Shown here piece after piece: positions 1 to 6,432 of a stretch of DNA of 6,432 nt. The DNA is from a virus. Its lineage: Duplodnaviria > Heunggongvirae > Uroviricota > Caudoviricetes. The notes under the pieces are model-generated. The model saw only the letters and a program-made list of their open reading frames with translations. It was not told the DNA's origin and did no database searches. Where the stretch lies: positions 1 through 6,432 of the IMG/VR virus record IMGVR_UViG_3300029241_000122; one strand, 5' to 3'. Within the stretch, counting starts at the first letter, position 1; each line of letters starts with the position of its first letter. A program made the position numbers and the translations under genes.

Positions 1-221
1 TGATAGAAACAGAAGCCACTGGAGCACCTCAAAAACACCATCATACACTAAATCAGTAAGTTGGCAGCATCACCAACATAATCTGTCGCGAGTGCCGGAA
101 GAGTGAAGCTATGCAGCGTGTACTGGCTTTCTATCAGGGTAATTTTCAGGAGGCGGTACTGTGAGTGAAATTAGCTATCAGGCTTCAATTACCGCTGGCA
201 TTCGCATCAAAGGAGAGGAGC

Positions 222-854: not shown

Positions 855-1023
855 TTTTGGTTCAACTAAATACAACGTCAGTTTTGAAGAATGGCATGAA
901 CTGTTAATGGGCTATGCAGAGTTACGTGGTGGCAGTGCTGCTGATGCTGAAGCATGGCGTGATGATTATGAAGCAGGAAAAACTCCGGTCGAAGCATATT
1001 GTGATGAGTGGGGCGATGAATGA
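847..1023 (+). CDS. Small acidic protein, 58 aa (MADFGSTKYNVSFEEWHELLMGYAELRGG...CDEWGDE)
   Basis: Falls below the 60-aa ORF-track cutoff and was found by hand translation. SD GAGGAAG lies about 7 nt upstream of ATG 847. Its stop overlaps the next ATG as ATGA (1020-1023). Composition is protein-like. Confidence 0.55.
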   Translation: MADFGSTKYNVSFEEWHELLMGYAELRGGSAADAEAWRDDYEAGKTPVEAYCDEWGDE

Positions 1024-1336
1024 GCGAGGTTAATTATCAGGAAGGGCATGAAACGGCGGGGCAAGCAAAAACAGTGGCATGGCGATATCGCTACGTGAAA
1101 AAAAAGGCGTTACGGACTTTCAGGGGAAGTAGTGGTCTGGTGACTGGAAATATGTACCGAAAAAAGAGGATTGTAACGACAGGCCGAACTATGAAATTCA
1201 GGCCTTATTCACTGCCCCGCCAGTCCCGGTTACATCAGAAGAACTGGTTAAAGCTGTGCACTTTTATGAACAACTAAAACGCGAAAATCCACCAGCATCC
1301 GGAAACCTGATTACAGATTCCCAGATAAGGCAATGA
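1020..1336 (+). pseudogene. Frame-disrupted ORF: N-terminal part in frame 0 (MSEVNYQEGHETAGQAKTVAWRYRYVKKK...), C-terminal part in the -1 frame (...DWKYVPKKEDCNDRPNYEIQALFTAPPVPVTSEELVKAVHFYEQLKRENPPASGNLITDSQIRQ, stop 1334-1336)
   Basis: Frame 0 after the A8 run (1098-1105) turns R/K-rich and junk-like. The -1 frame from 1133 to 1336 reads like real protein but has no start codon. Two in-frame A_AAA_AAG heptamers lie at 1100-1106 and 1160-1166. Either a homopolymer frameshift pseudogene or a -1 frameshift site. Confidence 0.4.
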
Positions 1337-1506: not shown

Positions 1507-1686
1507 ATGAAAAACGCATTGCAGTTTTTGTTTGTTGCGTTCTGGTTGTTCGTATCATGTATGCCCATCATCTTCACAGCAAGGTATATGGAAAAAGTTG
1601 ATGTTTTGATATTAATATTTGGATATATAAATGCCCTTTTTTTAGGGGTGTTCATGGCGGTCATGTGCATTGAATACTGGCGGTAA
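1507..1686 (+). CDS. Small membrane protein, 59 aa, with two predicted hydrophobic helices (MKNALQFLFVAFWLFVSCMPIIF...VDVLILIFGYINALFLGVFMAVMCI)
   Basis: Strong SD AGGAGG (1497-1502) lies 4 nt before ATG 1507; stop TAA 1684-1686. The ORF-track start (GTG 1468) is in frame but lacks an SD. Sits in an AT-rich block between the direct repeats. Confidence 0.6.
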   Translation: MKNALQFLFVAFWLFVSCMPIIFTARYMEKVDVLILIFGYINALFLGVFMAVMCIEYWR

Positions 1687-1741: not shown

Positions 1742-1769
1742 TTGCGGGGAAATCTTAGTTAAGTAGAAT
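1742..1769 (+). promoter_or_regulatory. Candidate sigma70 promoter of the hok mRNA (-35 TTGCGG 1742-1747, 16-bp spacer, -10 TAGAAT 1764-1769)
   Basis: The predicted transcript start near 1776 begins GGGTGCTTGAGGCTATCTG..., which resembles the 5' end of plasmid R1 hok mRNA (GGCGCTTGAGGCTTTCTG..., recalled from memory). The leader around 1900-1945 also resembles the R1 hok leader (GATAGCCTCTTAC...AAGGAGAAG). Confidence 0.45.
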
Positions 1770-1888
1770 GACTGCGGGTGCTTGAGGCTATCTGTCTCAG
1801 GCATGAACACCAAAAGGCAGATAGAGAAAAGCCCCAGTTAACATTACGCGTCCTGCAAGACGCTTAACATTAATCTGAGGCCATATCT

Positions 1889-1948
1889 ATGCGACACATA
1901 GAGATTAGCCTCTTACGGACCGAAAGGTCAAGGAGAAGCAGGCTATGA
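1889..1948 (+). CDS. mok-like 19-codon leader ORF translationally coupled to hok (stop TGA overlaps the hok ATG in CTATGAAG)
   Basis: ATG 1889 to TGA 1946-1948, 4-nt overlap with the hok start. Position matches mok in hok/sok loci, but the ORF is much shorter than R1 mok. Confidence 0.4.
   Translation: MRHIEISLLRTERSRRSRL
1902..1931 (-). promoter_or_regulatory. Candidate Sok-like antisense promoter (minus strand: -35 TTGACC, 18-bp spacer, -10 TAATCT)
   Basis: The reverse complement of 1902-1931 reads TTGACC-N18-TAATCT. Transcription would run leftward from about 1895, antisense to the mok-like start region, as the Sok RNA does in hok/sok systems. No clean terminator was found for it. Confidence 0.3.
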
Positions 1949-2109
1949 AGCAGCAAAAGGCGATGTTAATCGCCCTGATCGTCATCTGTTTAACCGTCAT
2001 AGTGANNNNNNNNNNNNNNNNNNNNNNNNNNNNNNNCCTCTGCGAGGTATGAATCCGAACCGGCCAGACGGAGGTCGCTGTCTTCACAGCTTACGAACCT
2101 GAGGAGTAA
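1945..2109 (+). pseudogene. hokD: Hok/Gef family type I toxin gene (HokD/RelF-like), interrupted by a 31-N run and carrying an in-frame TGA at 2050-2052
   Basis: N-terminus MKQQKAMLIALIVICLTVIV matches HokD as recalled. After the N-run the frame reads LCEV-TGA-IRTGQTEVAVFTAYEPEE-TAA, i.e. the conserved Hok C-terminus with TGA where Arg (CGA) is expected. SD AAGGAG lies about 10 nt upstream of the ATG. Confidence 0.65.
2006..2036. other. Run of 31 N (unresolved or masked bases) inside the hok ORF
   Basis: Seen directly in the sequence. If the length is exact, the hok frame is preserved across it. Confidence 0.95.
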
Positions 2110-2178
2110 GAGACCTGGCGGGGGAGAAATCCCTCGCCACCTCTGATGTGTCAGGCATCCTCAACGCACCCGCACTTA

Positions 2179-2204
2179 ACCCGCTTCGGCGGGTTTTGTT
2201 TTTT
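2179..2204 (+). terminator. Rho-independent terminator at the hok mRNA 3' end
   Basis: ACCCGC-TTCG-GCGGGT hairpin (6-bp stem, UUCG tetraloop) immediately followed by TTTGTTTTTT. A second GC-rich hairpin lies upstream at about 2113-2136. Confidence 0.8.
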
Positions 2205-2276
2205 CCTGGCATTCTGGTTTACAATTCGCACGTCAGCCTGAACACCTGACACCTGCTGCGCCAGCAGAGAAAACAG

Positions 2277-2550: not shown

Positions 2551-2958
2551 GTGCGGGTATTACTTAGACCTGTTCTGGTGCCTGAGCTTGGGCTGGTGGT
2601 CCTTAAGCCGGGCCGTGAATCCATACAGATATTTCATAATCCTCGAGTGCTGGTGGAGCCGGAACCGAAAAGCATGCGTAATCTGCCGTCCGGGGTTGTT
2701 CCTGCCGTTCGCCAGCCGCTAGTGGAAGACAAAACATTGCTGCCGTTTTTCAGTAACGCACGGGTGATTCGTGCTGCTGGTGGTGCTGGTGCATTGTCTG
2801 ACTGGCTGTTGCGCCATATTAAATCCTGCCAGTGGCCACACGGCGATTATCATCACAGCGAAACCGTCATTCACCGTTATGGTACCGGCGCAATGGTGTT
2901 GTGCTGGCACTGCGACAACCAGCTGCGTGACCAGACAGGCGACCGCAATCATTACTGA
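2551..2958 (+). CDS. Cys/His-rich, zinc-binding-like C-terminal domain protein (CQWPHGDYHH...CWHCDNQ); resembles DUF968-type lambdoid prophage proteins (YdfU/YdaW-like), probably a fragment
   Basis: Starts at GTG 2551; stop TGA 2956-2958 abuts the ATG of the Rz fragment. The family assignment is from memory and unverified. Confidence 0.45.
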   Translation: MRVLLRPVLVPELGLVVLKPGRESIQIFHNPRVLVEPEPKSMRNLPSGVVPAVRQPLVEDKTLLPFFSNARVIRAAGGAGALSDWLLRHIKSCQWPHGDYHHSETVIHRYGTGAMVLCWHCDNQLRDQTGDRNHY

Positions 2959-2959
2959 C

Positions 2960-3265
2960 ATGCAGATACGCCAGCGTGATGTTGCTGCACTCGATGCAAA
3001 ATACCTGAAGGAGTTAGCTGATGCGAAAGCTGAAAATGATGCTCTGCGTGATGATGTTGCCGCTGGTCGTCGTCGGTTGCGCATCAAAGCAGTCTGTCAG
3101 TCAGTGCGTGAAGCCACCGCCACCTCCAGCGTGGATAATGCAGTCTCCCCCAGACTGGCAGACACCGCTGAACGGGATTATTTCACCCTCCGGGAACGAC
3201 TGGTAATGATGCAGGCCCAACTTGAAGGTGCTCAGCAATACATAACCGAACAGTGTTTAAAGTAA
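2960..3265 (+). pseudogene. rzpR: N-terminally truncated Rz i-spanin (lysis gene remnant)
   Basis: Translation ...ITDMQIRQRDVAALDAKYLKELADAKAENDALRDDVAAGRRRLRIKAVCQSVREATA...DYFTLRERLVMMQAQLEGAQQYITEQCLK closely matches the C-terminal two-thirds of lambda Rz. The N-terminal TM segment is missing. The longer track ORF from 2771 is an out-of-frame read of the upstream gene. Confidence 0.75.
3021..3206 (+). CDS. rzoR: Rz1 o-spanin outer-membrane lipoprotein, embedded in the +1 frame of Rz
   Basis: MRKLKMMLCVMMLPLVVVGC with lipobox VVGC, proline-rich PPPPPAW segment, 61 aa, near-identical to lambda Rz1 as recalled. SD AAGGAG lies 7 nt upstream of ATG 3021. Confidence 0.8.
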   Translation: MRKLKMMLCVMMLPLVVVGCASKQSVSQCVKPPPPPAWIMQSPPDWQTPLNGIISPSGNDW

Positions 3266-5786: not shown

Positions 5787-6381
5787 TGATTTTTGCGCCT
5801 TTATTCTGACTCACGGACGACCGGAAAAAGTTCTGACTTACCGGACGTTGCGTCGTGCTGGCTATACCGGGAAAATTTTTATCGTTGTTGATGATGAAGA
5901 TAAGACACGGCATCAGTACATGGCTGAATTTGGTGAACAGGTGCTGGTATTTTCCAAAGCCGATATCGCCAGTCGTTTTGACGAAGCCGATAATTTTGGT
6001 GACCGCCGCTCAATTTTTTACGCCCGTAATGCCTGTTTCGACCTGGCAAAACTGGTCGGGTGTAAATACTTCATTCAGCTCGATGATGATTATCACGAGT
6101 TCCAGTTTCGGGTGGATCGCAACTATGACCAGGCCTATTTCCCGATAAGGAAACTGGATGCGATCCTTTCTGAAATGCTGGCGTATTACGAATCAATACC
6201 CGCGCTTTCCATCGCTATGTCGCAGGGCGGGGATTTTCTTGGTGACAATGGCGGCCATGCTTCGTGGGTGAAACGCAAGGCAATGAACAGCTTTATCTGT
6301 TCGGTTGATCGACCGTTCTCATTCATGGGGCGCATTAACGAGGATGTGAATACGGGTAATGCTGCCAACTTACTGATTTAG
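5779..6381 (+). CDS. GT-A fold glycosyltransferase-like protein (family-2-like), about 200 aa
   Basis: Motifs CAFILTHGRP...KIFIVVDDED and RRSIFYARNACFDLAKLVGCKYFIQLDDDY fit the GT2 pattern (strand-helix-strand with acidic patch, then ARN...G.Y..LD.DD, the DxD motif). Strong SD GGAGGAGG before ATG 5779, which overlaps the ParB-like stop by 8 nt. An in-frame ATG at 5761 is an alternative start. Confidence 0.6.
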   Translation: MRDDFCAFILTHGRPEKVLTYRTLRRAGYTGKIFIVVDDEDKTRHQYMAEFGEQVLVFSKADIASRFDEADNFGDRRSIFYARNACFDLAKLVGCKYFIQLDDDYHEFQFRVDRNYDQAYFPIRKLDAILSEMLAYYESIPALSIAMSQGGDFLGDNGGHASWVKRKAMNSFICSVDRPFSFMGRINEDVNTGNAANLLI

Positions 6382-6432
6382 TGTATGATGGTGATTTTAA
6401 GGTGCTTGCGTGGCTTCCATTTCCATCAGATG
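6381..6432 (+). CDS. Partial ORF running off the window end (VYDGDFKVLAWLPFPSD...); either a coupled downstream gene or a -1-frame continuation of the glycosyltransferase-like gene
   Basis: GTG 6381 overlaps the TAG stop 6379-6381 by 1 nt. The frame is open from 6360 to the window end. Confidence 0.3.
   Translation, partial: MYDGDFKVLAWLPFPSD

What the first reader, a model, noticed from the sequence alone, without database searches (positions are those of the whole stretch)
1945..2109. hok toxin ORF carries an in-frame TGA at the conserved Arg position
After the N-run the reading frame gives LCEV-TGA-IRTGQTEVAVFTAYEPEE, which is the conserved Hok/Gef C-terminus with a stop where CGA (Arg) is expected. 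That is a single C-to-T nonsense change, leaving a 35-residue TM-only peptide. Either the toxin is inactivated (a pseudogenised type I toxin) or it is a truncated variant. Chromosomal hok loci are often inactivated, but usually by IS insertion or regulatory decay rather than nonsense mutation.
Basis: partly seen in the sequence, partly recalled or inferred. Interest (0 to 1): 0.55.

Follow-up and report, generated by a model that had tools for sequence, protein, structure and literature searches.

The report
Nonsense-mutated hokD toxin gene in prophage
A small prophage-borne membrane-toxin gene (hokD type) carries a real single-base stop-codon mutation that most likely disables the toxin while leaving its RNA control elements untouched; this is an ordinary, rare, already catalogued allele.

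Summary
The TGA at 2050-2052 is in frame with the hok ATG at 1945. Over 452 aligned bases it is the only difference from an intact hokD-type locus (CGA to TGA, R33*).

The 31-N mask stands for 22 real bases. The frame is kept, but the product is 32 aa, not 35. RefSeq already lists it as WP_000813248.1.

The rest of the hok/sok locus is unchanged: leader, a 19-codon mok-like ORF, a Sok-type antisense hairpin, the 5'/3' fold-back and the terminator.

The allele is rare. It matches exactly in 5 of 5426 complete E. coli genomes, against 3081 records with CGA. It was absent from the phage, plasmid and species-representative collections. All carriers share one 2.3-kb haplotype, so it arose once. It travels in a lambdoid immunity-to-nin module, found in Rac at ttcA and in a second prophage beside potC.

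Published work on related Hok toxins shows that premature stops, C-terminal tags and loss of the distal periplasmic Cys/Tyr abolish toxicity. The best reading is therefore a recent loss-of-function allele. Toxicity of the 32-aa peptide itself is untested. Interest is low.

The parts
1764..1769 (+). Candidate -10 box (TAGAAT) of the hok mRNA promoter, 6 nt upstream of the predicted 5' end
   Evidence: Read directly; position inferred by analogy with R1 hok. The consensus scan found no full sigma-70 site, so this is an inference only.
1776..2205 (+). Predicted full-length hok mRNA (about 421 nt of real sequence once the mask is resolved)
   Evidence: The 5' end is taken from the start of the Rfam RF01794 match (1776-1947, 106.7 bits against a gathering score of 59). 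The 3' end is the intrinsic terminator. The region is identical to intact loci except for the one SNP.
1776..1787 (+). tac-like 5' element (GGGUGCUUGAGG) predicted to pair with the 3' fbi-like element
   Evidence: In the MFE fold of both alleles, nt 1-12 pair with nt 375-387.
1822..1897 (-). Sok-type antisense RNA (approximate ends): long hairpin at 1882-1830 followed by a U-rich tail. Candidate promoter is -35 TTGACC (1931-1926) and -10 TAATCT (1907-1902)
   Evidence: The minus strand folds at -31.7 kcal/mol, z = -5.26, with 0 of 200 shuffles as good. It lies opposite the mok start region and inside the Rfam sok match. The ends and the promoter are inferred by analogy with R1 Sok.
1889..1948 (+). 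mok-like leader ORF, 19 codons (MRHIEISLLRTERSRRSRL); its TGA overlaps the hok ATG (ATGA)
   Evidence: Read directly. It is too short for the ORF lists (20-aa minimum).
1930..1935 (+). hok Shine-Dalgarno sequence AAGGAG
   Evidence: Read directly; conserved in K-12 hokD.
1945..2052 (+). Truncated hok ORF: 32 real codons plus stop, drawn as 35 because of the mask
   Evidence: Annotated in RefSeq as WP_000813248.1 'Hok/Gef family protein'. Pfam HOK_GEF 44 bits, covering profile positions 1-27 of 42.
2006..2036 (.). Mask of 31 N standing for 22 real bases
   Evidence: Alignment with unmasked identical loci; the record span is 552 for a 561-base query.
2050..2052 (+). Nonsense codon TGA (R33*), from CGA by a C-to-T change at 2050
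   Evidence: The allele probes gave 5 exact genomes for TGA against 3081 records for CGA.
2053..2109 (+). Untranslated remnant of the hok C-terminal coding part (IRTGQTEVAVFTAYEPEE*), still identical to intact hokD
2159..2171 (+). fbi-like 3' element (CCUCAACGCACCC) complementary to the 5' end
   Evidence: MFE pairing; sequence.
2178..2205 (+). Intrinsic terminator: stem-loop AACCCGCTTCGGCGGGTT plus tail TTGTTTTTTC
   Evidence: L001 3470-3497, converted to window coordinates.

Best explanation
This is a hokD-type hok/sok type I toxin-antitoxin locus. It sits in the early-right (nin) part of a decayed Rac-type lambdoid prophage. A single C-to-T transition turned Arg33 (CGA) into a TGA stop. Translation would proceed normally up to that point: the hok mRNA is made and folded back 5' to 3', Sok antisense RNA is made from the opposite strand, and the 19-codon mok-like ORF is coupled to the hok start through an ATGA overlap. 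Translation then ends after 32 residues. The product keeps the basic N-terminus, the membrane helix and Cys30. It lacks the 19-residue periplasmic tail, including the Tyr47 position that is partly edited to Cys in hokD mRNA. The most likely result is a non-toxic or strongly attenuated peptide, that is, a young loss-of-function allele of the toxin with its RNA machinery still intact. Shown here: the mutation, its frame, its rarity, its single origin and the intact surroundings. Inferred: loss of toxicity, and expression of the RNAs.
For: There is one nucleotide difference from an intact locus in 452 bp. The truncated product covers only 27 of 42 HOK_GEF profile positions. All 120 closest relatives keep the C-terminus. 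The allele is rare: 5 exact matches in 5426 complete genomes against 3081 records with CGA, and none in the phage, plasmid or GTDB-representative collections. All carriers share one 2.3-kb haplotype with 0-2 private SNPs, which is 10 flanking SNPs away from strain 4/0. This indicates a single recent origin. The rest of the locus is intact: Rfam sok match, antisense hairpin, 5'/3' fold-back unchanged by the SNP, terminator. Literature: in R1 hok, 18 of the 20 codons that one substitution can turn into a stop were recovered as loss-of-toxicity mutants. M46I, Y48N, stop-codon loss and an 8-aa C-terminal tag also abolish toxicity (PMC9841398). The periplasmic C-terminus was proposed as the toxic domain, and replacing it with PhoA gave a non-toxic Gef (cited in PMC8509063). 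Toxicity of edited HokB requires C46, and the equivalent position in HokC/D/E becomes Cys by RNA editing (PMC12214031).
Against: Nobody has tested HokD R33* itself. The equivalent R1 codon cannot mutate to a stop in one step, by my reading of the R1 sequence from memory, so the published screen does not cover this exact position. Saturation mutagenesis of HokC shows that the membrane helix also carries toxicity determinants. Other type I toxins of 19-35 aa, such as TisB, Ibs and Ldr, are toxic as little more than a membrane helix (own knowledge). A 32-aa helix peptide could therefore keep some membrane activity. The allele has persisted in apparently complete prophages at two integration sites, which is compatible with neutrality but also with some retained use.
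Confidence: 0.8

Rival explanations
1. The 32-aa peptide is a functional truncated variant. It would be an attenuated membrane-active toxin, or a helix-only peptide that joins and modulates oligomers of full-length Hok paralogs in the same cell.
For: It retains the complete membrane helix, the basic N-terminus and Cys30. HokC toxicity depends partly on the helix. Three of the five carrier genomes hold further hokD-type copies (places per record 2-3). The allele is carried by seemingly complete prophages.
Against: Premature stops, C-terminal missense changes and C-terminal tags in R1 Hok, and C46S in HokB, all abolish toxicity. The allele is very rare and has a single recent origin. There is no sign of selection for it.
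Confidence: 0.08
2. The toxin is dead, but the locus is kept because Sok RNA is still useful. A toxin-less, antitoxin-proficient locus could neutralise hok mRNAs of incoming or co-resident hokD-type prophages, acting as anti-addiction or cross-immunity.
For: The leader, antisense hairpin and promoter-like elements are identical to intact loci. hokD-type loci are very common, with a median of 1 and up to 9 places per genome in about 4700 of 5426 genomes.
Against: The identity is uninformative. The whole 2.3-kb haplotype has only 0-2 SNPs among carriers, so there has been no time for decay. Rarity argues against any advantage. Sok expression was not measured.
Confidence: 0.08
3. UGA read-through or recoding yields low amounts of full-length Hok (for example R33W), so the locus is a down-tuned rather than a dead toxin.
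For: UGA is the leakiest stop codon in E. coli (own knowledge). The downstream 18 codons are still intact and in frame.
Against: The stop context is UGA-A, not the leaky UGA-C (own knowledge). Intactness of the downstream codons is expected for a young mutation. The TadA editing motif UACG is absent at the stop, which reads UAUGAA, so A-to-I rescue to UGG is not expected. No recoding signal was looked for beyond this.
Confidence: 0.03
4. The TGA is a sequencing or assembly error, or a frame illusion created by the N mask.
For: The mask length (31) does not equal the real length (22).
Against: 31 minus 22 is 9, a multiple of 3, so the frame holds. The identical allele is in five independent complete genomes from Japan, China, Sweden and Malaysia. 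The exact protein is recorded on 582 contigs.
Confidence: 0.01

Closest known systems
hokD (relF) of E. coli K-12, Qin prophage
   Same: It is the same gene. From 16 nt upstream of the ATG to the terminator the sequences are near-identical, and the ORF differs only by the C-to-T at codon 33. Downstream neighbours are of the same kind (small ORF, then a DUF968 gene).
   Different: K-12 hokD keeps the full 51 codons but has lost the whole leader (tac, mok, Sok target and Sok gene), which is replaced by relBE. The window keeps the leader but has lost the C-terminal 19 codons. These are two different routes to inactivating the same locus.
hokW-sokW of Sakai prophage 5 (E. coli O157:H7), PMC8621323
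   Same: It is a hok/sok locus carried by a lambdoid prophage, with a 51-aa Hok. It was shown experimentally to be toxic and to be neutralised by the antisense sokW RNA. It raises phage release about two-fold after induction. Stx and other lambdoid phages carry the CGA form of the same 91-nt stretch, annotated 'gef: phage maintenance protein'.
   Different: HokW is full length and active. The window's copy is truncated and sits in a prophage that has lost its lysis and antiterminator genes. I could not check the HokW sequence itself, because it is given only in a figure.
hok/sok of plasmid R1 (archetype)
   Same: The architecture matches: fold-back 5'/3' pairing, a leader ORF coupled to hok, an antisense RNA opposite the leader ORF start, and a Hok/Gef protein.
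   Different: R1 mok has 70 codons and overlaps hok. Here the leader ORF has 19 codons and stops on the hok ATG. The R1 toxin is intact. R1 is plasmid-borne and acts in post-segregational killing.
Other inactivated chromosomal hok loci of K-12 (hokA, hokC, hokE by IS elements; as summarised in PMC12214031)
   Same: They are chromosomal or prophage hok loci that no longer make an active system.
   Different: Those are disrupted by insertion elements or rearrangement. This one is disrupted by a single nonsense substitution with everything else intact.

Membership tests
Hok/Gef toxin family (Pfam PF01848) | Significant match to the HOK_GEF profile above the gathering score | tested here: met
   Truncated product 44 bits and repaired product 82.9 bits, against a cut-off of 22.
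Hok/Gef toxin family (Pfam PF01848) | Full domain present, including the conserved periplasmic C-terminal part | tested here: not met
   The truncated product covers profile positions 1-27 of 42; the repaired ORF covers 1-42. The missing part is still encoded downstream of the stop.
Hok/Gef toxin family (Pfam PF01848) | Basic N-terminus followed by a single hydrophobic membrane helix | tested here: met
   MKQQK followed by AMLIALIVICLTVIVTALV, read directly. No topology predictor was run.
Hok/Gef toxin family (Pfam PF01848) | Toxicity (membrane damage) on expression | not testable with these tools
   Only indirect evidence from literature on R1 Hok, HokB and HokC.
NCBIfam Hok family toxin (NF007279) | Score above the curated cut-off | tested here: not met
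   25.7 bits (truncated) and 48.5 bits (repaired HokD) against a cut-off of 73. Intact HokD also fails, so this model says nothing about the truncation.
hok/sok type I toxin-antitoxin locus | Antisense Sok RNA opposite the leader | tested here: met
   Rfam RF01794, 106.7 bits against 59. The minus strand forms a hairpin plus U-tail with z = -5.26. Expression was not tested.
hok/sok type I toxin-antitoxin locus | Leader ORF (mok) whose translation is coupled to hok | tested here: met
   A 19-codon ORF at 1889-1948 ends in ATGA on the hok start. It is shorter than the 70-codon R1 mok. Coupling is inferred.
hok/sok type I toxin-antitoxin locus | Long-range 5'/3' (tac/fbi) fold-back of the full-length mRNA | tested here: met
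   MFE structures of both alleles pair nt 1-12 with nt 375-387. This is a prediction only.
hok/sok type I toxin-antitoxin locus | Intact toxin ORF | tested here: not met
   R33*.

The most novel reading that the evidence does not exclude
The toxin-dead but RNA-intact locus is not just decay. Either it serves as a pure Sok donor that protects the host against hokD-type addiction modules of other prophages, or the helix-only Hok32 peptide modulates full-length Hok paralogs. Either role could explain why the allele has travelled with an otherwise intact prophage module into two integration sites.
Probability: 0.1. Interest if true: 0.45.

Novelty: already known. Interest (0 to 1): 0.12.

Why it matters
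It matters little beyond annotation. The gene should be read as a nonsense allele of hokD: 32 aa, not a distinct short 'Hok/Gef family protein' and not 35 aa. It also gives a clean natural example of a third way, besides IS insertion and leader loss, in which prophage hok loci are silenced. The five carriers plus the intact sister alleles would be ready-made material for testing whether the periplasmic tail of HokD is needed for killing, and whether a toxin-less hok/sok locus still gives Sok-mediated cross-protection.

Tried and rejected
1. Frame artefact of the mask: rejected. 31 N stand for 22 bases, a difference of 9.

2. Sequencing error: rejected.

3. Hok proteins naturally ending at this point: rejected.

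4. Nonsense loss being recurrent in hokD. The protein cluster holds 'partial' HokD forms of 37, 35, 34 and 28 aa on hundreds of contigs. Probes for the one-step stops that would give the 34- and 37-aa forms, R35* (TGA) and Q38* (TAG), found no exact match in 5426 complete genomes. Those forms are probably contig-end breaks at a repeated prophage sequence, not nonsense alleles. A second 32-aa form with I9V (P0007, 11 contigs) could be a recurrence, a recombinant or a fragment. This is unresolved.

5. A-to-I editing rescuing the stop: rejected on motif grounds.

6. The SNP acting through mRNA structure: the MFE structure is unchanged. Only a local C-G pair becomes U-G, costing +1.7 kcal/mol.

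The supplementary table of PMC9841398 listing the individual stop mutants is not held. One search was a malformed query.

8. In one search, 7 records fall in the >=99% identity band but only 5 are full-length exact matches. The other two, presumably partial alignments, were not inspected.

9. A selenocysteine or other recoding signal after the UGA was not searched for.

Full report
**Observation**

The window reads ATG at 1945 and then 20 sense codons. A run of 31 N follows at 2006-2036, then CTC TGC GAG GTA TGA ATC CGA ACC GGC CAG ACG GAG GTC GCT GTC TTC ACA GCT TAC GAA CCT GAG GAG TAA. The ORF finder gives a 35-codon ORF at 1945..2052 containing 11 X.

A megablast of 1700-2260 against 5426 complete E. 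coli genomes found loci identical on both sides of the mask. The match spans 552 bases in those records for 561 query bases. Aligning the window with one such locus (TUM9803) and with an intact hokD locus (strain 4/0) shows two things:

- The mask replaces 22 real bases (CGGCACTGGTAACGAGGAAAGA). The excess of 9 N is three codons, so the frame is preserved.
- The only difference between the two unmasked loci over 452 bases is C to T in codon 33, CGA to TGA.

The translations are MKQQKAMLIALIVICLTVIVTALVTRKDLCEV*IRTGQTEVAVFTAYEPEE* and the same with R in place of the stop.

**What the locus is**

The repaired protein is HokD, identical to the K-12 protein WP_000813254.1. It matches Pfam HOK_GEF over all 42 profile positions. 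The truncated product still passes the gathering score but covers only positions 1-27.

Rfam places its sok family model on 1776-1947 at 106.7 bits, against a gathering score of 59. That match is on the hok-sense strand, so it describes the hok leader to which Sok is antisense.

The following elements are present:

- **Sok-type RNA.** The minus strand of 1822-1897 folds into a long hairpin followed by a U-rich tail. The energy is -31.7 kcal/mol, z = -5.26, and none of 200 shuffles folds as well. This is what a Sok-type RNA with its terminator should look like.
- **mok-like leader ORF.** A 19-codon ORF runs from 1889 to 1948 and ends with a TGA that overlaps the hok ATG (ATGA). An AAGGAG lies 9 nt upstream of the hok ATG.
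- **Fold-back.** The predicted full-length mRNA, 421 nt of real sequence, pairs its first 12 nt with nt 375-387. This is the tac/fbi type fold-back. The minimum-energy structure is the same for both alleles. The SNP only turns one local C-G pair into U-G, costing +1.7 kcal/mol.
- **Terminator.** An intrinsic terminator follows at 2178-2205.

Everything that defines a hok/sok locus is present and identical to intact loci. Only the toxin ORF is broken.

**Context**

The best whole-window match is the Rac prophage of E. coli EC24, next to ttcA. Its gene order is intR, xisR, ralR, recT, recE, racC, kil, IS1, then the window's genes, then trkG and ynaK. The window differs from EC24 by one SNP at 1485 and at both ends, so it comes from a sixth, closely related carrier.

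This prophage is heavily decayed. The DUF968/HNH gene is cut after about 131 codons and fused to the 3' part of an Rz-type lysis gene. That deletion removes RusA, the antiterminator, the holin and the lysozyme, all of which are present in CH4796.

K-12's own hokD, in Qin, is homologous to this locus only from 16 nt upstream of the ATG to the terminator. Its leader has been replaced by relBE. The same gene has therefore been disabled in two different ways.

**Frequency and origin**

I used 91-nt probes centred on codon 33, so that one mismatch falls below 99% identity.

| Probe or look-up | Collection | Result |
|---|---|---|
| TGA allele | 5426 complete E. coli genomes | 5 exact, full-length matches |
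| CGA allele | same | 3081 records at >=99% |
| TGA allele | phage records | no match at >=99% (78 records carry the stretch) |
| TGA allele | plasmid records | no match at >=99% (440 records carry the stretch) |
| TGA allele (35-nt exact pattern) | species-representative genomes | 0 |
| Exact 32-aa protein | large protein collection | recorded on 582 contigs |

- The five carrier genomes are TUM9803, TUM10008, EC24, CH4796 and ESBLEC_HM24.
- In the TGA search, two further records fall in the >=99% band with partial coverage and were not inspected.

All six TGA sequences share one haplotype over 2.3 kb, with 0-2 private SNPs. That haplotype is 10 flanking SNPs away from strain 4/0. This indicates a single, recent mutation.

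In CH4796 the allele lies in a seemingly complete Rac-type prophage at ttcA. In ESBLEC_HM24 the same immunity-replication-nin module, with mostly identical proteins, lies in a different, lambda-like prophage beside potC/potD. The allele has therefore moved with a mosaic module between prophages. In the EC24/window lineage it has also outlived an IS1 insertion and a large deletion.

**Is nonsense loss common in hokD?**

The protein cluster also holds 'partial' HokD forms of 37, 35, 34 and 28 aa on hundreds of contigs each. Two of these lengths could arise from one-step stops: 34 aa from R35* (CGA to TGA) and 37 aa from Q38* (CAG to TAG). Probes for those two alleles found no exact match in the complete genomes. 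The partial forms are more likely assembly breaks at a repeated prophage sequence.

R33* is thus the only nonsense allele of this gene that I could confirm. A 32-aa form with an additional I9V change exists on 11 contigs and remains unexplained.

**Consequence**

No experiment on HokD R33* exists in the searched literature. The indirect evidence is consistent:

- In R1 hok, 18 of the 20 codons that one substitution can turn into a stop were recovered as loss-of-toxicity mutants. So were M46I, Y48N, loss of the natural stop (a 17-aa extension) and an 8-aa C-terminal tag (PMC9841398).
- The periplasmic C-terminus of Gef was proposed as the toxic domain, and its replacement by PhoA gave a non-toxic protein (cited in PMC8509063).
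- Toxicity of edited HokB needs C46 and DsbA. The equivalent position of HokC/D/E is a Tyr codon that is edited to Cys in part of the transcripts, 6% for hokD (PMC12214031). That position, Tyr47, lies beyond the stop here.

Against this, the membrane helix of HokC also carries toxicity determinants. Several other type I toxins are little more than a helix (own knowledge). Residual activity of the 32-aa peptide therefore cannot be excluded.

A prophage-borne relative, hokW-sokW of Sp5, is toxic and roughly doubles phage release after induction (PMC8621323). That is the function most plausibly lost here. In the window's prophage, which has no lysis genes left, the function would have been irrelevant anyway.

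**Verdict**

- It is a rare, young, single-origin nonsense allele (R33*) of the well-known hokD gene, already present in RefSeq as WP_000813248.1.
- Its regulatory RNAs are untouched simply because there has been no time for them to decay.
- I put 0.8 on plain loss of toxin function.
- The rest is spread over residual activity of the helix peptide, retention as a Sok donor, and read-through.
- Interest is low and novelty is nil at the level of system type.

Noticed in passing
window 1-74 and 6355-6428: Two 74-nt arms, 88% complementary, bracket the whole 6.28-kb hok-trkG-ynaK segment. The left arm aligns with the end of the IS1A copy annotated in EC24. The segment therefore lies between two IS1-type ends in inverted orientation. 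EC24 has only the left IS1 and differs by about 37 bp at that junction.
   Followed up: partly
window 2551-3265: The 5' third of a DUF968/HNH gene (2551-2943) is fused to the 3' part of an Rz-type lysis gene (2936-3265). Compared with CH4796, the deletion removes RusA, the antiterminator, the holin and the lysozyme.
   Followed up: partly
window 1507-1686 (+): A 59-codon ORF encoding a very hydrophobic, apparently two-helix peptide lies in an AT-rich stretch just upstream of the hok promoter. It is not annotated in RefSeq and matches no PHROG or NCBIfam family.
   Followed up: partly
window 2047-2052 and 2092-2097: Intact hokD contains the TadA-type editing motif UACGAA twice: at codons 32-33 (GUA CGA) and at the known Tyr47 site (UAC GAA). 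The nonsense C-to-T destroys the first copy, which becomes UAUGAA. Editing there would be synonymous, so it is probably irrelevant.
   Followed up: no
window 1776-1947 (+): The Rfam family named 'sok antitoxin' matches the hok-sense strand and ends on the hok AUG. As used here it models the hok leader rather than the antisense RNA itself.
   Followed up: no
window 1888-1944, and proteins P0034, P0059, P0117: Many database 'Hok family toxin' entries are 70 aa. They are HokD with a 19-aa in-frame N-terminal extension (MLVTYRLPLTDRKVKEKQA) from other hokD-type leaders. In the window that frame is closed by TAG at 1906-1908, and the leader ORF is in another frame.
   Followed up: partly
protein cluster (P0003, P0004, P0005, P0006): 'Partial' HokD forms of 37, 28, 35 and 34 aa each occur on about 190-640 contigs, including Shigella flexneri. 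Probes for R35* and Q38*, the stops that would give the 34- and 37-aa forms, found nothing in complete E. coli genomes. The cause, whether contig ends at a repeat boundary, IS insertion or rearrangement, was not determined.
   Followed up: partly
window 1020-1336: RefSeq marks the homologous stretch in all carriers, and in strain 4/0, as a pseudogene ('frameshifted; internal stop'). A second broken gene therefore lies about 600 bp upstream of hok, and it predates the hok mutation.
   Followed up: no
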